NCBI GenBank assembly: GCA_016124735.1
Contig: WGMZ01000031.1
Span: 52,147 to 116,146, forward strand
Length of the DNA stretch: 64,000 nt
Direction of reading: 5' to 3'
Source of the DNA: Bacteroidota bacterium
GTDB lineage: Bacteria; Bacteroidota; Bacteroidia; UBA8524
The translations under genes and the position numbers were made by a program. How positions within the stretch are numbered: position 1 is the stretch's first letter; the number at the start of each line of letters is the position of its first letter. This document shows positions 22,814-51,117 of this stretch, one piece after another. The notes beneath the pieces are model-generated. The model was not told the DNA's origin. It did not search any database and saw only the letters and a program-made list of their open reading frames with translations.

Positions 22814-23600
22814 TTCCGGCTTTCACAATAAACCAGGGATTTAACAGGTTTTCCTTGTTATAAGTCAATTCAATACCCGTTTCCGGGTTAAAGACGCGGC
22901 ATCCACTTGCCTTTGCGATTGCATGGCCGGCGGCAGTATCCCATTCCATGGTGGGAGCGAAACGGGGATAAATCTGAGCCGTGCCTTCCGCCACCATACA
23001 TATTTTCAATGAGGATCCGATGGATATCCATTCTATCTCCCCATGTTTTATTCTTAATTCTTGAATAAAAGACTCTGTTTCCCCCGAAAGATGGGACCTG
23101 CTACCAACAACAGTGTAAGGTTCACCTAGTGGTTGAGCAGATATTTTCACTTTCGAGGCATCAATTTCTTCCCATCCCGATTCTGGGTGAACTTTTTCGG
23201 CTTTATAACTCATTCCCGCATCCCCACCCCAATAAAGTTTCTTTAGTACCGGAGCATATACGACACCCCATACGGGTGCGCCGTTTTCTATCAATGCGAT
23301 GTTAACCGTAAACTCTCCATTTCTTTTGATGAATTCCTTGGTACCATCCAGGGGGTCCACCATCCAAAATCTTTTCCATTCACTTCTGTTCTCGTAGCAA
23401 TCCCTGCTCGATTCTTCACTTAGGACAGGAATACCGGTATCAGACAGATATTTAATAATTACCTGGTGTGCCTGCTCATCTGCCTCGGTCAATGGGCTTT
23501 TATCCTCCTTAAGCTCCACTTTGAATTCGTTTTCGTACACATTTAAAATTTTCCTGCCGGCTGCTAAGGCTGCTTCTAATGCTTGACGAAATTCACTCAT
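22800..23600 (-). CDS. cysQ: 3'(2'),5'-bisphosphate nucleotidase (PAP phosphatase)
   Basis: The inositol-monophosphatase-family metal-binding motif WMVDPLDGTKEF is present and the length is 266 aa. It lies adjacent to the PAPS genes. Confidence 0.8.
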   Translation of the reverse strand: MSEFRQALEAALAAGRKILNVYENEFKVELKEDKSPLTEADEQAHQVIIKYLSDTGIPVLSEESSRDCYENRSEWKRFWMVDPLDGTKEFIKRNGEFTVNIALIENGAPVWGVVYAPVLKKLYWGGDAGMSYKAEKVHPESGWEEIDASKVKISAQPLGEPYTVVGSRSHLSGETESFIQELRIKHGEIEWISIGSSLKICMVAEGTAQIYPRFAPTMEWDTAAGHAIAKASGCRVFNPETGIELTYNKENLLNPWFIVKAGNDDR

Positions 23601-32944: not shown

Positions 32945-34035
32945 TAGTTATTGCCTACTATTTCAATAAATTTTCGATTCCAATCGGTCGAATTAAACTC
33001 TTTCGATCTTTCGTATGATTGCTCACCCATTTCTTTCAACATGGCTTGATTGTTCACCAATTTCCGCATTACATCCGCCAGACCCTTATTATTTTCTATA
33101 GGCACCAAAAAGCCATTCCGACCCTCTTCAACCAATTCGTCGAGAAAGCGCCACCTTGTGGTCACAATTGGTAAGCCCGCTTCCATTGCTTCAATCAAAG
33201 CACCCGGATATCCTTCACCTTTCCAAAAAGATGGATACACAAAGGCATCGGCTTGCAGTAATTGTTTTCCAATTTCGGCATGTGGAAGTTCTCCAAGATA
33301 CTGGATGGTTGGTGTCTGCTCCAGCTGCCTGAGAATAGTATCATCGGTGCATTTTCCTATCACCTTTACAATAAAATCCGCCTCTTGCTTCGACAGAATC
33401 ATGCAAGCTTCGACCAAAACCTGTATCCCCTTTTCTTTTTTTACATGACCGACATAGACAAAGGTGGTTTTATCGGATGGCAATTTTTCTTCCTTTCGCA
33501 CTAATTTGTTTGCTGGCCGAGACGTTGGAAACCATTCAATATTCTCAACAGATCCTATGTTCTCTTTCCAAAAAGTGATTAAGCCCTTTGTTTGTAGCAG
33601 AATTCTATCAGAGGACCCTAGCCGTTTATAGTACCACTTATGCAGAGGTTTCGCCTCACAATAAAGGTCCAAGTCGCTGCCAAATAAGCGAATTTGAAAT
33701 TTTCTCTTAAAAATCCGTGCCATTGCAAAAAACACTATTCCCCATGGCCCCACCCTTTGTGGGTTTGCATGGAATGAAATAATCTGATAGAAAGGAATCG
33801 ATAGTAGTATTTGAAAGAAAAGTTTAATCTGCAAAAGCATATTGGCAAATCTGCCCGGCAACACCCTCAAGCTAATCAGACTAAAGTCCAGGTTACTTTT
33901 TTCTATGTCTTTGAGCAGAAGATCAAAAGACACCCGCGTTCCTCCCAGAGGAGGTGGCAATGGACCTATTAAAAGGATACGCTTTTTTAGCTCAGCCATT
34001 TTTCTTTCCAGGTTTGGAAAATATACAAATGCCAA
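32944..34035 (-). CDS. Glycosyltransferase family 4
   Basis: The C-terminal half of the GT-B fold carries FVYPSFWKGEGYPGALIEAMEAGLPIV (EX7E). Confidence 0.75.
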   Translation of the reverse strand: MAFVYFPNLERKMAELKKRILLIGPLPPPLGGTRVSFDLLLKDIEKSNLDFSLISLRVLPGRFANMLLQIKLFFQILLSIPFYQIISFHANPQRVGPWGIVFFAMARIFKRKFQIRLFGSDLDLYCEAKPLHKWYYKRLGSSDRILLQTKGLITFWKENIGSVENIEWFPTSRPANKLVRKEEKLPSDKTTFVYVGHVKKEKGIQVLVEACMILSKQEADFIVKVIGKCTDDTILRQLEQTPTIQYLGELPHAEIGKQLLQADAFVYPSFWKGEGYPGALIEAMEAGLPIVTTRWRFLDELVEEGRNGFLVPIENNKGLADVMRKLVNNQAMLKEMGEQSYERSKEFNSTDWNRKFIEIVGNN

Positions 34036-45447: not shown

Positions 45448-47847
45448 CTAGTTTTTCCTGAGACGCAGTTTGGATTTTTTCTTCTGATGGTCCTCTTCAT
45501 AATAGCCATATCCATAACCGTAGCCATAACCGTAGCCATAGCCGTATCCGTAGCCATAGCCGTAACCATATGTTGAACTTACTCCTACATCATTCATGAT
45601 GACGGAAATCGACTTGTTACTGTGATTTTCCTCCAAATAATTTAATGAAGTCAACATTGGCTTTCTTGTGTATGATTGCCGAATTACATAAATAACAATA
45701 TCCGCAAACTTCATCAAATCATTCGCATCTGCCACCAATCCCATCGGAGGCGTATCCATTACAATATAGTCGAATCTTTCTTTTAGCTCAATGAGCATTT
45801 CTGCGAACTTCTCGCTCATCAATAATTCAGCAGGATTGGGTGGTGTCGGACCAGATGGGATTACGAATAAATTCGGGTTCATGGTCGGATGGATTACATC
45901 TTTCAGTTTCTCCGCACCAATAAGGTAATTCACTACACCCTTTTCGTTGGTAAGGTTGAAGTCATCAAAAATTGTGGGGTTCCGTAAGTCCAAACCAAGG
46001 ATGACTGTTTTCTTTTCCCCCAACGCAAGAATGGAAGCTAAGTTCATAGAACAATATGTTTTTCCTTCACCAGAAATGCTGGAGGTCACCAAAATAACTT
46101 TCTTCTCCTTACTGATAGATAAATACTGAAGATTTGTTCTTATCGCCCGGAAAGATTCGGATATACTCGTCTTAGGGTGTTCAAGTACAATTAAGTTCGT
46201 GCTCTTTTCACTGTGACCAACCAATCCCAATATATTTGCCTTGGAAATGCTTTGAACTTCTGCCAATTCATGTACTCTGTTGTCGAAATAACTGAATATC
46301 GAAATGCCACCTATCGGAATTAAAATACCAAGTAAAAATCCGATTGCATAATTCAGTGACTTTTTTGGAGAAATTACACCCAAAGCTACCGCTTCATCAA
46401 TAATCTTATTAGGTGAAACAATCGATGCCTTATTAATTTCACTTTCAGCCTTTTTCTCAAGAAGTAAAGTAAATAATGCGTCGTTCAGTAAATATTTTCT
46501 CTCAATAGTTAAATAGGTTCTTTCAACCTGAGGTAGTTTCGCAATTTCTTCATCGTATGAATTAATCTGGCGATCTAATTCCTGAATTCTGATGGATGAC
46601 CCTTGTTTTTGAGAATTCAGATTCTCCACCAATGTTTTTTTAAGCAATACTATCTGAGCATCAATACCATTCAGCAAGGTTCCTTCCTTCACAATCCCTG
46701 ATAACATATCCTGCCTCTGCGAATTCAAATGAATTAATTCATTTACCAAACCAATTAACACCGGATCTTGAACGCCCATCGAAGAAGGGGCCACAATATC
46801 GTCTATGGATCTACGGCCATGTACATAGTCTTCTAAAAAGTTCAGGTATTGGATTTGCAGGTCCTCTGATGACTTTTTGGCAATCAATACATCCAGTTTC
46901 TCAAAAATTCTTCCTCCTTCTTCCCCGATAGTTGTCAATCGGTGTGAAGAGTGAAAATCTTCTCTCAGATTTTCAACCTGATCCAGACTGTCCGACACTA
47001 TCGCCAATTGGGAATTTATAAAGTCAATGGTCTTTTCGGACTTTTCCTTGGCTTCCTTCAAACCAAATTGAATATAGGTTCGTGCAAGAGTATTTAAATA
47101 ATCTTTGATTTTTAACTCATTTCTACCTTTCAACTCCATTCTTATAGCCGACGATCCTTCCGCCTCTGGGTCAATCACCAGGTCTTTGTTGTATTTTTCG
47201 ATGAGAGATTCCTCGGTGTTAAACTTGATAGACATTCGTTCATTTCCCTTCACTGGCCCCTTCCTTATTAACCTGAAGTAAAACCCGTTCCAGCCAATAT
47301 TTTTATCAAATTCATATTCGTCCCGAAGTGTGGTATCCCACAAATCTTCAATCTCGTCCCTGTTTAATAGCTTCCAATTTCCTTCATTATCAAACTCTAT
47401 TTCGAGATTGACTTTTTCCATATACTCCGGAATACTGTCATATATCAATTTAATAGGCACATCCGGACCGTAGGTTTCATTGCTAAGCAGGCGACCAACA
47501 ATAAAATAGCTAATCCCAAAATCCAATTGATCAAGCGTGAGCCTGGTCATCTTGCGAGATTTAATTTTTACTACCTCATTCTCAAAAGTCAAGCGTGGGT
47601 TATAATAGCCCAAGGCGGACATCAATTGTTCAGGACCAAAAGATTCCTTTTCACTGCCATCGTCAATTAATAGTTTTAACTCTGTCTTATAGGTTGGTAA
47701 GGTATATCTGTTAACGAGATACGCAACAGACAAACCCAACAAAATACCGAATACGATTATTGGCCAAAAAGATAAAATTCTAAAAAGTAATGCCTTTAAA
47801 TCAATCGATTCACTTGCATTAGATGATTGGCGTTCCGAAGAAGTCAT
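45448..47847 (-). CDS. wzc: Polysaccharide co-polymerase / tyrosine autokinase (Wzc, BY-kinase) with a C-terminal (YG)11 tyrosine tail
   Basis: An N-terminal Wzz-like domain has two TM segments and long coiled coils. The C-terminal kinase has Walker A VTSSISGEGKTY and Walker B-like VIMDTPP. The tail is STYGYGYGYGYGYGYGYGYGYGYYEE. Confidence 0.85.
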   Translation of the reverse strand: MTSSERQSSNASESIDLKALLFRILSFWPIIVFGILLGLSVAYLVNRYTLPTYKTELKLLIDDGSEKESFGPEQLMSALGYYNPRLTFENEVVKIKSRKMTRLTLDQLDFGISYFIVGRLLSNETYGPDVPIKLIYDSIPEYMEKVNLEIEFDNEGNWKLLNRDEIEDLWDTTLRDEYEFDKNIGWNGFYFRLIRKGPVKGNERMSIKFNTEESLIEKYNKDLVIDPEAEGSSAIRMELKGRNELKIKDYLNTLARTYIQFGLKEAKEKSEKTIDFINSQLAIVSDSLDQVENLREDFHSSHRLTTIGEEGGRIFEKLDVLIAKKSSEDLQIQYLNFLEDYVHGRRSIDDIVAPSSMGVQDPVLIGLVNELIHLNSQRQDMLSGIVKEGTLLNGIDAQIVLLKKTLVENLNSQKQGSSIRIQELDRQINSYDEEIAKLPQVERTYLTIERKYLLNDALFTLLLEKKAESEINKASIVSPNKIIDEAVALGVISPKKSLNYAIGFLLGILIPIGGISIFSYFDNRVHELAEVQSISKANILGLVGHSEKSTNLIVLEHPKTSISESFRAIRTNLQYLSISKEKKVILVTSSISGEGKTYCSMNLASILALGEKKTVILGLDLRNPTIFDDFNLTNEKGVVNYLIGAEKLKDVIHPTMNPNLFVIPSGPTPPNPAELLMSEKFAEMLIELKERFDYIVMDTPPMGLVADANDLMKFADIVIYVIRQSYTRKPMLTSLNYLEENHSNKSISVIMNDVGVSSTYGYGYGYGYGYGYGYGYGYGYGYYEEDHQKKKSKLRLRKN
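45501..45570. repeat. Near-perfect tandem DNA repeat (period about 6 to 12 bp) encoding the (Tyr-Gly)n tail of Wzc
   Basis: The plus-strand sequence ATAGCCATATCCATAACCGTAGCCATAACCGTAGCCATAGCCGTATCCGTAGCCATAGCCGTAACCATA is the reverse complement of TAY/GGN codon pairs. Confidence 0.8.
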
Positions 47848-47856
47848 AAGTTAGGA

Positions 47857-48732
47857 TTAGGTCTTACTGATATAGTATACAATGATAATCGTCGATGAAA
47901 GTACCGATAAAACAGATACCAATGATTGAAAACCGGTAGTCCCTGTGCCAAGTGCTCTGATTGCTAATGGTTGCACATATATTATATCATTCGGTTGTAT
48001 GTAATAATAAGGGGATGATATTATAGATTCATCCAGTAAATTGACCTTGTGAATTCGAGTCCCATCAGGATACTGCCTCATAATTGTTACCTCGCTTCTT
48101 TTCGCCAATTCTGTTAAATCTCCTGCATTTGCAATCGCTTCAAACAAAGTCATTCGATTCTGTAATACCATGAACTTACCGGGTCGCTTTACTTCACCGA
48201 GAACTGAATATCTCAATCCTCCCAGTCGCACCGTTGTGTACACATTACTCAGGTATTGATTAAACGTGGATTGAACAATTGAATTTGCTTCAAATACATT
48301 TAACCCTTCCAATTTCATTTTTCCAATAATCGGTAAATAAACAAAGCCTGAATCATCTATAGTAAAACCCGTCAAGTAGAAATAGTCCCCACCCTGTTGC
48401 AAAGCACTAGACATATTCATATTCATTCGCTGTTCAAAGATGTTTTGCAAAATCGGATTATCAGAAGCCAGCTTGACATCTATGCCCACAATATCACCCT
48501 TTTGAAGTCGATAATTATTGCGTTGCACATCATACAAGGTATCAGCCTGCTGATTTATATCTTGAAGATAGATGATTTTCTTATTCGGCACACAGCCAAT
48601 TATTCCCAACATCAGGAACAATGGAAGGAAAAAGTTTGTAGCTCTTTGACTCAAAATCGAAACAATTTTGGGCGAAGATAGGACTAAGAGTTCGGTTTTC
48701 AGAATTCCAAATTCAGTTTTGTATGCATACAA
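47857..48732 (-). CDS. wza: Polysaccharide export outer-membrane protein Wza (Poly_export plus SLBB domains). The true start is likely the internal Met giving the lipoprotein signal LMLGIIGC.
   Basis: A lipobox-like LGIIGC is present. The Poly_export-like segment is YRLQKGDIVGIDV and the SLBB-like segment is YSVLGEVKRPGKF. The C-terminus is hydrophobic. Confidence 0.75.
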   Translation of the reverse strand: MYAYKTEFGILKTELLVLSSPKIVSILSQRATNFFLPLFLMLGIIGCVPNKKIIYLQDINQQADTLYDVQRNNYRLQKGDIVGIDVKLASDNPILQNIFEQRMNMNMSSALQQGGDYFYLTGFTIDDSGFVYLPIIGKMKLEGLNVFEANSIVQSTFNQYLSNVYTTVRLGGLRYSVLGEVKRPGKFMVLQNRMTLFEAIANAGDLTELAKRSEVTIMRQYPDGTRIHKVNLLDESIISSPYYYIQPNDIIYVQPLAIRALGTGTTGFQSLVSVLSVLSSTIIIVYYISKT

Positions 48733-48751
48733 ATCACCTACCCTTCCTTTA

Positions 48752-48901
48752 CTCTATATGACTGAGAAAATACAATATCAAGGTGATTGTTCCGAATATA
48801 AAAGTTATAATCAAACAGCCAATTGCCAAGTTGAATAAGGAAGCTTTGCTTAATGAGAACTTTTTATTGAACCTTTCTATTTTGTAAAATTCATTGTCCA
48901 T
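48752..48901 (-). CDS. Small ORF (about 49 aa) encoding a single-TM peptide immediately upstream of wza; possible operon leader or small membrane protein
   Basis: The minus-strand translation is MDNEFYKIERFNKKFSLSKASLFNLAIGCLIITFIFGTITLILYFLSHIE. It is below the ORF-track length cutoff and sits 20 bp upstream of the wza ORF. Confidence 0.3.
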
Positions 48902-48993
48902 AAATATTTCCTTTCATTCTATTTACGGAAAATGGTTACAGGTAGTTCTTAGACTCGAAATTAATTGGAAGTGCTGCTTTGAATGGGCCTTCT

Positions 48994-49153
48994 GGGCGGG
49001 GCGGGGGGCAAGGGGCAGAGGGCGTGGAGCAAGGGGCAGGGAGTAAAGAGCAGAGGGCGTGGAGCAAGGAGCGAGGGGCAGGGAGCGAGGGGCAGGGAGC
49101 AAGGGGCAGAGGGCAAGCAGAGAGCGTGGAGCCAGCGGGCAGGGAGCAGGGAG
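48994..49153. repeat. Polypurine (G/A-rich on the plus strand), GC-rich imperfect tandem repeat with G-quadruplex and triplex potential
   Basis: GGGCGGGGCGGGGGGCAAGGGGCAGAGGGCGTGGAGCAAGGGGCAGGGAG ... GGGGCAGGGAGCGAGGGGCAGGGAGCAAGGGGCAG ... The stretch is about 160 bp with only about 4 T and about 25 C. The 14-21 bp units GGGGCAGGGAGCGA and GGAGCAAGGGGCAGAGGGCGT recur. The local GC is far above the window average. Confidence 0.8.
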
Positions 49154-49244
49154 TTCGCTGCTAAGTGAAGAAAAGTTTGTCGAAACCAGGTTAAAAAGGG
49201 GATTCACACTTGATTGTGAACCATAGCTTCTCGAAATTTATAGG

Positions 49245-49619
49245 ATGAATGAGTTTCGATTTGAGAACATGCGGATATGGCAAGAAGGGATGAGACTCTC
49301 CATTATGCTCTTCGAAATTGCTAATCTAGCCGAAGACAAAAAATACTTTCGTTTTGCAGATCAACTTCGTGGCGCTACAATGAGCATTACAAACAATATT
49401 GCCGAAGGCGCAGGATCAACTTCAGATAAGGACTTCGCACATTTTCTGAATATTAGTAAACGCTCCATTTATGAATGCGTAAATATCTTACACCTTTATG
49501 AAATGTGCATGCTTATTCAAGCTGATAAACGCGAAACACTCTATCCAAATCTTGCTGCTTTGAGCAAACAAATCACCAATTTCAGAAAAGCACTTTTATC
49601 AAAAGAAAGAAAAATGTAA
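49245..49619 (+). CDS. Four-helix-bundle protein (TIGR02436 / '23S rRNA intervening-sequence protein' family)
   Basis: The 124-aa protein carries the segment W ... A ... L ... SITNNIAEGAGSTSDKDFAHFLNISKRSIYE, which is characteristic of this family. Confidence 0.7.
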   Translation: MNEFRFENMRIWQEGMRLSIMLFEIANLAEDKKYFRFADQLRGATMSITNNIAEGAGSTSDKDFAHFLNISKRSIYECVNILHLYEMCMLIQADKRETLYPNLAALSKQITNFRKALLSKERKM

Positions 49620-49647
49620 AGAGCTCCATGCCCCCGTCCCCCTGCTC

Positions 49648-51117
49648 CTAGCGCGAATAGTTCGGCGCCTCCTTGGTAATTGTAATATCGTGCGGATGAG
49701 ACTCTCTCACTGCCGCCGGGGAGATTTTCACAAACTGCGCTTGCTGCAATTCTTCAATCGTCTTCGCACCGCAGTATCCCATTCCTGCTTTCAAGCCTCC
49801 TACATGCTGGTAAACAATCTCTTTCAGACTGCCCTTGTATGGAACAATTCCCACAATACCTTCGGGTACCAATTTGGCTATTTCTTCTTCTGCATCCTGG
49901 AAATAACGGTCTTTTGAACCTTGCTTCATTGCTTCAATAGATCCCATTCCGCGATACGATTTTACCTTCCTTCCTTCGTAGATGATGGTTTCACCCGGAG
50001 ATTCCTCTACCCCCGCAAACATGGAACCTGCCATAATGGTGCTGGCTCCCGCCACAATTGCTTTTACAATATCTCCACTGTAACGTATTCCTCCATCTGC
50101 TATGATCGGCACCCCGGTTCCCTGCAAGGCGGCTGCCGAATCCATAATGGCCGATAATTGGGGAACACCAATGCCCGCAATAATTCGTGTGGTGCAGATG
50201 GAACCTGGTCCCACTCCAACCTTCACCGCATCTGCTCCTGCATCCACAAGATGTTTTGCTGCAGCCCCGGTAGCCACGTTACCAACAATGATCTGAAGAT
50301 CCGGAAATTTCGACTTGACCCTTTTCAGTTCCTGCGCCACATACATGGAATGTCCATGTGCCGTATCAATGGTAATTACATCAACCCCCGCAGCAACCAA
50401 TGCTTCCACTCTTTCGAGCGTCTCCGCCTTGATGCCAACGGCAGCCCCAACCATTAAGCGACCTAAATTGTCCTTATTCGCTAAGGGGTTATCGCTGTGC
50501 TTGAGTATATCTTTATATGTGATCAAGCCGGTAAGTCTGCCGTTTTTATCCGTTACCGGTAATTTCTCGATTCGGTGCTGTTTGAGTATCTCTTCTGCCT
50601 GCCCCAAGGTAGTGCCCTCGGGCGCCGTAACCAGACCTTCCTGCGTCATCACATCCTTGACCATTTTGCCTTTGTCGTACTCGAACCTTAAATCGCGATT
50701 TGTCAAAATACCCACCAGTTTCTTTCCTTCGTCTACAACAGGAATACCTCCAATTTTATTCTCCTTCATCAATTCCAGAGCTTTGCCGATGGTATCTTTC
50801 GGATACAATGTAATCGGATCTAAAATCATCCCGCTTTCCGATCTCTTCACGCGGCGCACTTCCAAAGCCTGCTTCTCAATGCTCATGTTTTTATGAAGTA
50901 TTCCAATTCCTCCAACCTGAGCAAGAGCAATTGCCAGTCCTGATTCTGTGACCGTGTCCATCGCCGCAGAAACGATTGGCACATTGATATTCAATTCACG
51001 GGTCAGTTTAGTAGTGGTAGTTACTTCCCGAGGAAGAATTTCTGAGTATGCAGGAACAACGAGAACATCATCAAAAGTCAGTGACTCTCCAATGATTTTG
51101 TTTGTGAAATCGATCAT
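49648..51117 (-). CDS. guaB: IMP dehydrogenase
   Basis: The start [22 protein letters not shown] is the internal Met at 51117. The ORF-track start at 51174 adds 19 residues that do not resemble IMPDH. Tandem CBS domains, the catalytic region [11 protein letters not shown] and the [12 protein letters not shown] motif are present. Confidence 0.9.

What the first reader, a model, noticed from the sequence alone, without database searches (positions are those of the whole stretch)
48752..49244. A 160-bp polypurine, G-quadruplex-capable repeat and a small TM-peptide ORF lie in the upstream region of the 36-kb operon
Upstream of wza lies a 49-codon ORF for a hydrophobic peptide, then an approximately 160-bp stretch at 48994-49153. 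On the plus strand this stretch is more than 80% purine and far more GC-rich than the surrounding AT-rich genome. It is built from GGGGCAGGGAGCGA-like units, with runs such as GGGCGGGGCGGGGGGCAAGGGG that satisfy the G3+N1-7 G-quadruplex rule several times. A strict homopurine/homopyrimidine mirror-like repeat can form H-DNA. Its position between the divergent four-helix-bundle gene and the giant EPS operon makes it a candidate structural promoter element or a recombination/phase-variation hotspot. The 61-94 aa ORFs across it (PLAPR-rich or GQGA-rich) look repeat-driven rather than coding.
Basis: seen in the sequence. Interest (0 to 1): 0.7.

Follow-up and report, generated by a model that had tools for sequence, protein, structure and literature searches.

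The report
Heptamer-repeat arms flanking a four-helix-bundle gene
The G-rich repeat is real, but it is not a switch for the polysaccharide operon: it is one arm of a pair of inverted 7-base microsatellite arrays that bracket a small "23S rRNA intervening-sequence protein" gene, a layout I found around this gene family in many bacterial phyla and did not find described in the papers I could search.

Summary
Observation confirmed. Window 48994-49153 is 82.5% purine and 72.5% GC, the extreme of the window, with a 7/14-nt period and several G4 motifs. It is not a strict homopurine tract: a C falls every 7 nt.

Interpretation largely replaced. The tract lies 5' of a PF05635/TIGR02436 four-helix-bundle (4HB) gene at 49245-49619. 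A 27-nt C-rich reverse-complement arm (49621-49647) fills the gap between that gene's stop and the guaB stop.

In 80 related loci from at least six phyla, 4HB genes carry G-rich heptamer arrays upstream and C-rich ones downstream. The opposite order was seen in 0 of 79. Array density is 17 times higher near the gene than elsewhere.

A relative with the same ccmF-guaB-wza synteny has, directly after the guaB stop, the same kind of G-array/C-array hairpin with no gene in it. Other relatives have the EPS operon leader with no array.

Array length differs (83-211 nt) among contigs encoding an identical 4HB protein.

Best reading: an IVS-like cassette in which the gene sits in the loop of a heptamer-microsatellite hairpin. 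RNA-level processing is inferred, not shown. G4 potential is not conserved across the family (23 of 82 loci). The 50-aa membrane ORF is conserved in synteny and is probably real.

The parts
48994..49153 (+). 5' arm: G-type heptamer microsatellite array, about 23 units of the GGGGCAG/GGAGCAA type. The G-rich zone extends over 48980-49162.
   Evidence: Composition and periodicity. The same unit is present, at variable length, 5' of the orthologous 4HB gene in L001-L006. G-rich arrays upstream are seen across the family.
49154..49244 (+). 91-nt AT-rich spacer or leader between the array and the 4HB start codon.
   Evidence: Sequence. No Bacteroidota-type TAnnTTTG box and no sigma-70-type promoter hit were found in it. 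The family median spacer is 45 nt.
49245..49619 (+). Four-helix-bundle protein gene (124 aa), family PF05635 23S_rRNA_IVP / TIGR02436. This is the cargo in the loop.
   Evidence: Pfam E 3.4e-24, 85.5 bits against a cut-off of 33.8. TIGR02436 83.2 bits against a cut-off of 24. PDB 2GSC (XCC0516) E 2e-9. 650 homologues were found. Against the 76%-identical orthologue, pN is 0.14 and pS is 0.77.
49621..49647 (+). 3' arm: C-type array (GAGCTCCATGCCCCCGTCCCCCTGCTC, about 4 heptamers), the reverse complement of the 5' arm unit. It fills the whole gap between the 4HB stop (49617-49619) and the guaB stop (49648-50).
   Evidence: Inverted repeats I2/I5. The motif hit on the minus strand at 49623. The G4Hunter minimum of -1.88 is here. 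RNAduplex with the 5' arm gives -73.7 kcal/mol, against -33.9 +/- 8.5 for random window segments; 0 of 298 were as good.
49648..51117 (-). guaB (IMP dehydrogenase). Its stop codon abuts the short arm. It anchors the element's position.
   Evidence: Pfam IMPDH E 1e-158. Gene call of 489 aa. In relative L102 a gene-less G/C array hairpin starts directly after the guaB stop.
48902..48990 (-). Conserved leader or promoter region of the EPS operon. It is not part of the cassette and begins where the array ends.
   Evidence: Alignment A2 with L098 and L099: GCAGCAyTTCCAA...CCTGyAACCwTTTTyCGTA, 75% mean column identity.
48749..48901 (-). 50-aa single-TM small ORF immediately upstream of wza. It belongs to the operon, not to the cassette.
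   Evidence: Syntenic ORFs of 49-50 aa in L098 and L099 share the same architecture (M[DE]xxFYKI...FN...TM...LYF) at 30-37% identity. There are no database homologues. It was not called in the source assembly.
47857..48732 (-). wza-like polysaccharide export gene, the first large gene of the roughly 36.8-kb minus-strand cluster.
   Evidence: Pfam Poly_export plus SLBB. ORF map.

Best explanation
The polypurine tract is the long 5' arm of a heptamer-array hairpin cassette. Two arrays of the same 7-nt microsatellite family (unit about RGRGCNN, here GGGGCAG/GGAGCAA) sit in inverted orientation, G-rich first and C-rich second. They bracket a PF05635 four-helix-bundle gene, the protein family first found inside 23S rRNA intervening sequences (IVSs) and related to the DGR accessory protein Avd. 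The cassette sits directly after the guaB stop codon, in the guaB-wza spacer, antisense to both neighbours.

Shown:
- The architecture in the window.
- Its recurrence around this gene family in many phyla.
- The existence of the same kind of hairpin without a gene at the orthologous site of a relative.
- Length variation of the array among near-identical strains.
- Independence from the EPS operon.

Inferred:
- Any transcript crossing the cassette, in either direction, can pair the G-rich arm with the C-rich arm into a long stem with the gene in the loop. This is the geometry of ORF-bearing 23S IVSs, whose stems are cut by RNase III. The arms would therefore serve to isolate or process the cassette RNA from host transcripts.
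- The arms expand and contract by replication slippage.
- The arrays give the gene a portable, recombination-prone landing structure.

G-quadruplex formation is possible here but is a by-product of this lineage's unit sequence, not the conserved feature.
For: Local anatomy:
- G-array, 91-nt spacer, 4HB gene, then a 27-nt complementary C-arm that abuts the guaB stop.
- Arm-arm duplex of -73.7 kcal/mol, against -33.9 +/- 8.5 for controls; 0 of 298 were as good.

Family-wide pattern (80 loci from Bacteroidota, Verrucomicrobiota, Ignavibacteriota, Planctomycetota, Kiritimatiellales, Desulfobacterota and others):
- The meta-profile shows G 0.34-0.37 and C 0.15 at -120..-41, and C 0.29-0.36 and G 0.17 at +1..+100. 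Skew is near 0 further out.
- 58 of 79 loci have skew above +0.2 upstream (background 17%). 44 of 79 have skew below -0.2 downstream (background 7.5%). 35 have both, and 0 have the opposite order.
- A strict 7-nt-period detector finds arrays in 48 of 87 loci upstream and 43 of 87 downstream.
- Array coverage is 15.6% within 250 nt of the gene and 0.9% elsewhere.
- Arms of one locus share 6.6 8-mers as reverse complements, against 2.0 between loci (p = 6e-16).
- Duplex energy of upstream against downstream flanks is -92.7, against -64.0 for the control (p = 4e-9).

More distant members:
- X. campestris XCC0516 (PDB 2GSC) has a GGGAATC array 6 nt after the upstream gene, overlapping its annotated start.
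- The Nostoc and Pseudanabaena plasmid copies are flanked by GGGGAAA-type and AAAAGCT/AAAAGCC arrays.
- The Coxiella 23S IVS has 2-3 strain-variable GACAGAT heptamers just upstream of its S23p ORF, with the RNase III cut at the first repeat (PMC4990558).

Empty site:
- L102 (guaB 90% identical, same ccmE-ccmF-guaB-wza-wzc order) has a G-array, a 9-nt loop and a C-array right after the guaB stop. It folds at -37.4 kcal/mol, z = -4.0.
- Gene-less pairs elsewhere show the G-to-C order 13 times and the C-to-G order once.

Embedding:
- The upstream neighbour is co-directional in 69 of 77 loci, against a baseline of 0.77 (p = 0.004).
- The median gap from the upstream ORF to the 4HB ATG is 104 nt, mostly array.
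- The stop-to-C-array distance has a median of 13 nt.
- The arrays are therefore likely to be transcribed with the gene.

Length variation: (for example a clean 28-nt, 4-unit difference between L001 and L003).

The gene is under purifying selection (pN 0.14, pS 0.77).
Against: - No transcript data exist, so RNase III processing and even transcription of the arms are untested.
- Mismatches between arms show no excess of G.T over A.C (48 against 63, p = 0.18). There is therefore no base-pair-level signature of selection on an ORF-sense RNA stem.
- Folding the whole 721-nt cassette gives z = +0.25.
- In this window the arms are very unequal (160 against 27 nt).
- The gene is antisense to both neighbours, the minority arrangement (5 of 71 loci with both neighbours identified are '--').
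- About 40-45% of family loci fail the strict array detector on one side.
- One plasmid copy (Pseudanabaena) has its arrays in direct orientation, not inverted.
- An identical 4HB protein seen on at least 24 contigs has a single context and constant spacing. Mobility and hypervariability are therefore not general.
- Short-read metagenome assemblies can collapse tandem repeats, which could inflate the apparent length variation.
Confidence: 0.6

Rival explanations
1. DNA-level reading. The inverted heptamer arrays matter as DNA. They are slippage-prone and able to extrude hairpins or cruciforms, and they act as recombination or capture sites. On this view the 4HB gene is a transposase-less cassette that spreads or is lost by recombination or template switching between arrays. 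The arms could also invert the cassette. This is largely compatible with the best explanation and differs in which molecule is under selection.
For: - The same guaB-proximal site carries an empty hairpin (L102), nothing (L103), other repeat modules plus arrays (L099-L101), unrelated genes (L098) or the 4HB cassette (window, L001-L006).
- Array lengths vary.
- Solo arrays of the same unit are common without a 4HB gene; 9 of 10 metagenome hits are of this kind.
- There is no wobble asymmetry between arms, as expected if there is no RNA-strand-specific selection.
- The window's cassette is in the inverted (minority) orientation.
Against: - No target-site duplications or near-identical copies in different contexts were seen; P0088 has a single context.
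- No viral carriers were found.
- No recombinase is linked to the cassette.
- Homologous recombination between inverted arms inverts the segment but does not excise it, so loss and gain need another mechanism.
Confidence: 0.3
2. First reader's model. The tract is a structural (G4 or H-DNA) promoter element or phase-variation switch of the 36-kb EPS operon.
For: - It lies about 260 nt upstream of wza and is G4-capable.
- Repeat number varies between strains.
Against: - The arrays follow the 4HB gene, not EPS operons.
- In L001-L006 the same array and cassette are next to different upstream genes (AbiEii and others), not wza.
- L098 and L103 keep wza, and L098 also keeps the conserved leader and small ORF, with no array.
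- The conserved leader starts after the array.
- The tract is not a homopurine mirror repeat.
- G4 motifs are absent from most homologous arrays.
Confidence: 0.06
3. Local insulator or terminator. In this window's orientation, read-through from guaB would produce a 27-nt G-rich arm, then 375 nt of untranslated antisense RNA, then a 160-nt C-rich, G-poor stretch. That is a hairpin plus a textbook Rho-loading (rut-like) region. It would stop guaB transcription before the EPS operon promoter.
For: - The arm abuts the guaB stop, and the empty hairpin in L102 occupies the usual position of a 3' terminator or stabiliser.
- The minus-strand transcript of 48994-49153 would be 57.5% C and 15% G.
- In family loci the C-rich arm starts a median of 13 nt after the stop codon.
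Against: - This is purely compositional inference.
- No U-tract follows the hairpins.
- It does not explain why a 4HB gene sits in the loop, or the family-wide pattern upstream of the gene.
Confidence: 0.2
4. Protein-repeat partnership. The 4HB pentamer binds the heptamer arrays, as DNA or RNA, and maintains, spreads or regulates them. This would be analogous to RAYT transposases flanked by the REP sequences they act on, or to Avd binding the DGR template RNA.
For: - There is a tight physical linkage of gene and arrays across phyla, with lineage-specific units.
- Homology of PF05635 proteins (via 2GSC) to Avd is stated in PMC10053308.
- The protein is mildly basic, pI 8.95.
Against: - No binding data exist.
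- The protein has no enzymatic domain.
- Arrays are abundant without nearby 4HB genes.
- Units are too diverse for one conserved binding specificity.
Confidence: 0.15
5. The repeat is part of a protein-coding gene, namely the PLAPR-rich 94-aa or GQGA-rich 61-aa ORFs.
For: Open frames exist on both strands.
Against: - The period is 7 nt, not a multiple of 3.
- Length differences between strains (28 nt, 128 nt) shift the frame.
- There are no Pfam hits.
- The ORFs were not called in the source assembly.
Confidence: 0.01

Closest known systems
ORF-bearing 23S rRNA intervening sequences (Coxiella, Leptospira, Brucella; the S23p ORF)
   Same: Same protein family in the loop (PF05635). [quoted passage not shown] Coxiella even has 2-3 strain-variable tandem heptamers just upstream of the ORF, at the RNase III cut site (PMC4990558).
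   Different: This element is not in an rRNA gene; there are no Rfam hits in the window. The arms are long microsatellite arrays rather than a unique 28-bp inverted repeat. It sits between protein-coding genes. RNase III excision is untested here.
G-rich heptameric simple-sequence repeats of Xanthomonas (GGGAATC) and Nostoc (GGGGA[C/T]T; the STRR type), Rehm et al. 2015 (PMC4692102)
   Same: 7-nt units, G-rich, intergenic, variable in copy number, often in convergent inverted pairs, and G4-capable in vitro for those units. One of their Xanthomonas repeats abuts XCC0516, a 4HB gene.
   Different: That work did not link the repeats to PF05635 genes or to IVSs. Here the unit differs (GGGGCAG/GGAGCAA), and in relatives it often lacks G-tracts, so G4 formation is not the common denominator.
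REP/BIME elements and their RAYT genes (recalled from general knowledge; not tested here)
   Same: An abundant intergenic repeat family, and a small gene flanked by inverted copies of that repeat. The repeats lie in 3' UTR or intercistronic positions and can form hairpins.
   Different: There is no Y1-transposase domain. The repeats are tandem microsatellites, not 35-nt palindromes. 4HB genes are multi-copy.
Avd, the accessory variability determinant of diversity-generating retroelements
   Same: A homologous four-helix-bundle pentamer fold (PMC10053308).
   Different: There is no reverse transcriptase among the called genes with Pfam hits within +/-10 kb. No template/variable repeat pair was looked for or noticed.
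Contingency-locus microsatellites (phase variation)
   Same: A tandem repeat with strain-to-strain copy-number change close to a surface-polysaccharide operon.
   Different: The repeat lies neither within a promoter spacer nor within an ORF of the operon, and it is absent from relatives that have the same operon leader.

Membership tests
PF05635 / TIGR02436 four-helix-bundle (23S rRNA IVS protein) family (the gene at 49245-49619) | Profile match above the curated cut-offs | tested here: met
   Pfam 85.5 bits against 33.8. TIGR02436 83.2 bits against 24.
PF05635 / TIGR02436 four-helix-bundle (23S rRNA IVS protein) family (the gene at 49245-49619) | Sequence relative with a solved four-helix-bundle pentamer structure | tested here: met
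   2GSC (XCC0516) E 2.2e-9 over residues 7-78. The fold of this particular protein was not predicted.
23S rRNA intervening sequence (IVS) | Inserted in helix 25 or 45 of a 23S rRNA gene | tested here: not met
   No rRNA or any other Rfam family was found in the 64-kb window. The neighbours are guaB and wza.
23S rRNA intervening sequence (IVS) | Bordered by complementary sequences that form a stem enclosing the ORF | tested here: met
   Inverted repeats I2/I5. Duplex of -73.7 kcal/mol, with 0 of 298 controls as good.
23S rRNA intervening sequence (IVS) | Excised from the precursor RNA by RNase III | not testable with these tools
   Needs RNA end mapping in wild type and an rnc mutant.
Heptameric G-rich SSR class (Rehm et al. 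2015) | Tandem units of 7 nt | tested here: met
   TRF periods 7/14/21/35. Lag-7 autocorrelation 0.62.
Heptameric G-rich SSR class (Rehm et al. 2015) | Four or more consecutive G-tracts that permit a G4 | tested here: met
   Nine overlapping (G3+N1-7)x4 matches and a G4Hunter score of 2.52. Folding in vitro was not tested.
Heptameric G-rich SSR class (Rehm et al. 2015) | Copy number varies between related genomes while the position is kept | tested here: met
   83-211 nt among L001-L006, with identical flanks. Caveat: these are short-read assemblies.
Phase-variable (contingency) promoter SSR of the EPS operon | The repeat lies within the promoter spacer or 5' coding region of the regulated gene | tested here: not met
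   An 89-nt conserved leader and the small ORF separate it from wza. The leader is conserved in L098 without any array.
H-DNA-forming homopurine mirror repeat | An uninterrupted homopurine/homopyrimidine mirror repeat of about 10-12 nt or more per arm | tested here: not met
   The longest purine run is 6 nt. The longest mirror repeat is 12 nt in total and contains C.
Diversity-generating retroelement | A reverse transcriptase plus template/variable repeats next to the Avd-like gene | tested here: not met
   No RVT family appears among the Pfam hits of called genes within +/-10 kb. TR/VR pairs were not searched for exhaustively.
REP-RAYT system | A Y1 (IS200/IS605-like) transposase flanked by REPs | tested here: not met
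   The flanked gene is PF05635 only.

The most novel reading that the evidence does not exclude
PF05635 four-helix-bundle genes are the cargo of a widespread, so far undescribed class of transposase-less cassettes that live in the loops of inverted heptamer-microsatellite hairpins. ORF-bearing 23S rRNA IVSs would be one special case of this class. The Avd-like protein would bind, and help maintain or spread, the heptamer arrays. This would give a cause for the long-noted excess of 7-nt repeats in bacterial genomes and a function for stand-alone Avd-like proteins.
Probability: 0.15. Interest if true: 0.85.

Novelty: new variant of a known kind. Interest (0 to 1): 0.66.

Why it matters
Three loose ends in bacterial genomics have been treated separately:
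- the unexplained over-representation of heptameric repeats;
- the origin of ORF-bearing rRNA intervening sequences;
- the role of the very numerous stand-alone Avd-like "four helix bundle" genes.

The architecture seen here links all three. The same gene family is bracketed by the host lineage's own heptamer arrays, whether it lies next to guaB, between cas6 and cas4, or, as published for Coxiella, in 23S rRNA.

If the arms work as an RNA-level excision or insulation device, it would explain how these genes can sit inside operons and even rRNA without harm. The idea is directly testable with RNA end mapping and RNase III mutants.

For annotation, such G-rich or C-rich tracts next to 4HB genes should not be read as promoters or as coding repeats.

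Tried and rejected
- Rfam at gathering threshold on the whole window: no hits.
- Folding the whole cassette as RNA: not more stable than shuffles, z = +0.25.
- Sigma-70-type and Bacteroidota-type (TAnnTTTG) promoter scans of 48600-49750: nothing convincing. The TSS could not be placed.
- Viral-contig scan with the 4HB alignment: no relatives. PHROGs: no hit.
- Exact-pattern scan of metagenomes for the array unit: only 1 of 10 hits was next to a 4HB gene. The arrays are therefore not exclusive to the gene.
- Wobble-asymmetry test for RNA-strand selection: negative.
- Test for recent mobility with an identical protein seen on many contigs: a single context.
- Search of 1.84 billion representative proteins with the 50-aa ORF: no meaningful hit. 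Its support comes only from synteny.
- Literature searches for a link between four-helix-bundle or IVS proteins and heptamer or tandem repeats found only the Coxiella paper.
- Rejected: coding repeat, H-DNA, DGR, REP-RAYT membership, and an EPS promoter SSR (see the membership table).
Full report
**1. The observation.**
Window 48994-49153 is real and extreme. It is 82.5% purine and 72.5% GC in a 41.5% GC window. It holds the window maximum for both measures and the highest G4Hunter score, 2.52.

It is a tandem array with periods 7, 14, 21 and 35. Lag-7 and lag-14 autocorrelation is 0.62-0.64, against 0.30-0.46 at lags that are not multiples of 7. The unit GGGGCAGGGAGC with up to 2 mismatches occurs 12 times, against 2.6 expected.

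It is not a strict homopurine tract. A pyrimidine recurs every 7 nt, the longest purine run is 6 nt, and the longest mirror repeat is 12 nt. The H-DNA argument therefore does not hold.

The ORFs across the tract have no family hits and were not called in the public assembly of this contig.

**2.
The gene immediately downstream on the plus strand (49245-49619) is a PF05635 "23S rRNA intervening sequence protein", also TIGR02436 "four helix bundle protein". It is related to the crystallised pentamer XCC0516 (2GSC).

The 27 nt between its stop codon and the convergent guaB stop codon (49621-49647, GAGCTCCATGCCCCCGTCCCCCTGCTC) are the reverse complement of the upstream unit. They hold the most negative G4Hunter value in the window. 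The two arms can form a -73.7 kcal/mol duplex, against -33.9 +/- 8.5 for random window segments; 0 of 298 were as good.

**3. The same layout surrounds this gene family elsewhere.**
A scan of species-representative genomes with an alignment of homologues returned 80 loci, mostly Bacteroidota. It also returned Verrucomicrobiota, Ignavibacteriota, Planctomycetota, Kiritimatiellales, Desulfobacterota and others.

- Averaged over these loci, the 100 nt before the start codon are G-rich (G 0.34-0.37, C 0.15). The 100 nt after the stop are C-rich (C 0.29-0.36, G 0.17). Further out the skew is near zero.
- 58 of 79 loci have skew above +0.2 upstream (background 17%). 44 of 79 have skew below -0.2 downstream (background 7.5%). 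35 have both, and none has the opposite order.
- The raw flanks are tandem heptamers such as GGGCAAA, GGGGCAT, GGAGCAT, GAGCACA, AGGGCTC and GAGCGAA. Their reverse complements lie downstream.
- A strict periodicity detector finds arrays in 48 of 87 loci upstream and 43 of 87 downstream.
- Arrays cover 15.6% of the 250-nt flanks and 0.9% of the rest of the loci.
- The unit differs between lineages, but the two arms of one locus match each other. They share 6.6 8-mers, against 2.0 between loci (p = 6e-16).
- The upstream and downstream flanks pair better than controls (-92.7 against -64.0 kcal/mol, p = 4e-9).

More distant members behave alike:
- In Rehm et al.'s own table, a GGGAATC array sits 6 nt after bccP and overlaps the annotated start of XCC0516.
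- A Nostoc plasmid copy is flanked by GGGGAAAAGGG... upstream and CCCTTTTCCCC... downstream.
- A Pseudanabaena copy between cas6 and cas4 is flanked by (AAAAGCT)15 and (AAAAGCC)9.
- The Coxiella 23S IVS has 2-3 strain-variable GACAGAT heptamers just upstream of its S23p ORF, where RNase III cuts (PMC4990558).

Only 23 of 82 loci have a canonical G4 motif upstream. Seven-base periodicity and strand asymmetry are conserved; G-tracts are not.

**4. Position and the empty site.**
guaB homologues at 88-94% identity gave the orthologous region in relatives.

- L102 has the same ccmE-ccmF-guaB-wza-wzc order, with only 151 nt between guaB and wza. Directly after the guaB stop it has TGCATGGAACATGGAGCACGGAGCATGGAAC, a 9-nt loop, then TTTCCATGC...CCCCATGCCCCATGCTCTGCGCTCCTTGCCCTGG. 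This is a G-array/C-array hairpin with no gene. It folds at -37.4 kcal/mol, z = -4.0.
- L103 has neither arrays nor a cassette.
- L099-L101 have arrays plus other repeat modules.
- L098 has three unrelated genes and no arrays.
- The window and L001-L006 have the 4HB cassette, in the same orientation relative to guaB.

The 4HB gene therefore sits in the loop of a hairpin type that also exists empty at the same place. Gene-less pairs elsewhere in the fetched loci are G-then-C 13 times and C-then-G once. Solo arrays of exactly this window's unit also occur in metagenomes without any 4HB gene nearby; 9 of 10 hits are of this kind.

**5. Relation to the EPS operon.**
The 89 nt upstream of the small ORF (48902-48990, minus strand) are conserved with L098 and L099. 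The conservation starts exactly where the array ends. L098 has this leader and the small ORF but no array. In L001-L006 the same array and cassette have different upstream neighbours. The array is therefore not a component of the operon's control region.

The 50-aa ORF has syntenic counterparts of 49-50 aa with the same N-terminal motif, basic stretch and single TM helix, at 30-37% identity. It has no database homologues. It is probably a real small membrane protein of the operon.

**6. Dynamics.**
Six contigs encode the identical orthologous 4HB protein. Their 5' G-rich tracts measure 211, 211, 183, 121, 83 and 170 nt. The 120-nt spacer to the ATG is 100% identical, and in five of the six the upstream flank is identical too. 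L001 and L003 differ by a clean 28 nt, which is 4 units. This supports slippage-type length change, with the caveat that these are short-read assemblies.

By contrast, another identical 4HB protein found on at least 24 contigs has one context and constant spacing, with short degenerate arms. Variability is therefore not universal, and recent mobility was not seen.

The gene itself is under purifying selection (pN 0.14, pS 0.77 against the 76% orthologue).

**7. How it probably works.**
The 4HB gene is usually co-directional with its upstream neighbour (69 of 77 loci, baseline 0.77, p = 0.004). It lies a median of 104 nt behind that neighbour, and most of that gap is array. The spacer from array to ATG has a median of 45 nt, and it is under 35 nt in 16 of 45 loci. 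The C-rich arm starts a median of 13 nt after the stop. There is thus often no room for a private promoter, and the arms are likely to be part of the transcript.

A G-then-C hairpin is strand-symmetric, so any transcript crossing it makes the G-rich arm first and the C-rich arm second, and can fold a long stem with the gene in the loop. This is the geometry of ORF-bearing 23S IVSs, which RNase III excises.

I therefore favour an IVS-like cassette whose arms isolate or process the cassette RNA. That step is inferred. The wobble test gave no support for strand-specific RNA selection (G.T 48 against A.C 63), and whole-cassette folding is unremarkable.

A DNA-level role for the arms, as slippage-prone, hairpin-forming, recombinogenic structures that explain presence/absence at one site, is a compatible rival. 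In this window's inverted orientation a local side effect is plausible. guaB read-through would meet a hairpin and then a 160-nt C-rich, G-poor RNA, a typical Rho-loading composition, before the EPS promoter.

**8. Comparison with what is known.**
Known:
- PF05635 ORFs in rRNA IVSs bordered by inverted repeats.
- Heptameric G-rich SSRs with inverted pairs in Xanthomonas and Nostoc.
- Homology of the family to Avd.
- Scattered occurrence in cas loci and in CPR rRNA insertions.

In the searchable literature I found no description of stand-alone 4HB genes being systematically bracketed by inverted heptamer arrays, or of the empty-hairpin counterpart.

The element fails IVS membership because it is not in rRNA. 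It also fails membership as a DGR, a REP-RAYT system, a contingency promoter SSR and an H-DNA repeat.

I class it as a new variant of a known kind: an IVS-like cassette outside rRNA, with microsatellite arms.

**9. Verdict.**
- The promoter/G4/H-DNA interpretation is mostly not supported.
- The repeat-variation and hot-spot ideas are supported in a different sense.
- The follow-up uncovers a general and apparently undescribed architecture, whose mechanism remains to be shown experimentally.

Noticed in passing
L001 2096-2700 (also L002-L005): Between the orthologous 4HB gene and guaB there is first a 66-nt G-rich patch right after the stop. After that come 1-3 copies of a roughly 175-nt module (...caaagttcacaactactatatgctctatgccc...ccttcggtaagctgcaccttcgcaaatgcttcggtgcacgcagtcaggatgacg...), each ending in a C-type heptamer array. 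The copy number differs between contigs.
   Followed up: partly
L099 4600-5090: In the guaB-wza spacer of a 90% relative there are 4-5 copies, in both orientations, of a roughly 115-nt module (ctcatctttgcggaatcttttttcatcccagcggaatcctgcttc...). They lie between a short G-type array and a G/C array hairpin. This is a different repeat family occupying the same hot spot.
   Followed up: no
window 48902-48990 (minus strand); L098 3790-3863; L099 5170-5244: A conserved roughly 90-nt non-coding stretch (GCAGCAyTTCCAA...CCTGyAACCwTTTTyCGTA) lies upstream of the small ORF that precedes wza. It is a candidate promoter or leader of the EPS operon. No known promoter consensus was found in it.
   Followed up: partly
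L099 5478-5597: A second small single-TM ORF (39 aa, MNWHMDNPHRRFNVV...) follows the first in one relative and is weakly similar to it. This suggests a duplicated small-membrane-protein gene ahead of wza.
   Followed up: no
window 45448-47847 (minus strand): The 799-aa Wzc-like ORF ends in a (GY)n tail, YGYGYGYGYGYGYGYGYGYGYY, followed by a lysine-rich end. This is presumably the tyrosine cluster of a BY-kinase, encoded by a hexanucleotide repeat.
   Followed up: no
L105 (Pseudanabaena galeata plasmid pPg_01) 950-1660: A 4HB gene is inserted between cas6 and cas4. It is flanked by (AAAAGCT)15 and (AAAAGCC)9 in direct, not inverted, orientation, with (AGCTTTT)n arrays further upstream. This is an exception to the inverted-arm rule and an example inside a CRISPR adaptation module.
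   Followed up: partly
all fetched loci (L007-L086): Heptamer array pairs are almost always ordered G-rich then C-rich: 13 against 1 for gene-less pairs, and 35 against 0 for pairs around 4HB genes. This order is strand-symmetric, and I have no explanation for it.
   Followed up: partly
L019 and L045 (same contig CAVTDE010000008.1, about 10 kb apart): Two different 4HB cassettes, each with long heptamer arms of similar units (GGGCTCA / GGGCACA), lie within 10 kb of each other in one genome.
   Followed up: no
window 23205-23239 and 33731-33758: These are the only other stretches in the window with |G4Hunter| of 1.5 or more. Both are C-rich on the plus strand and lie inside minus-strand ORFs of the EPS cluster.
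   Followed up: no
window 49201-49222: An 8-bp inverted repeat (GGATTCACACTTGATTGTGAACC) lies in the spacer between the array and the 4HB start. On the minus strand it is flagged as terminator-like, because it is followed by CCCTTTTTAA.
   Followed up: no
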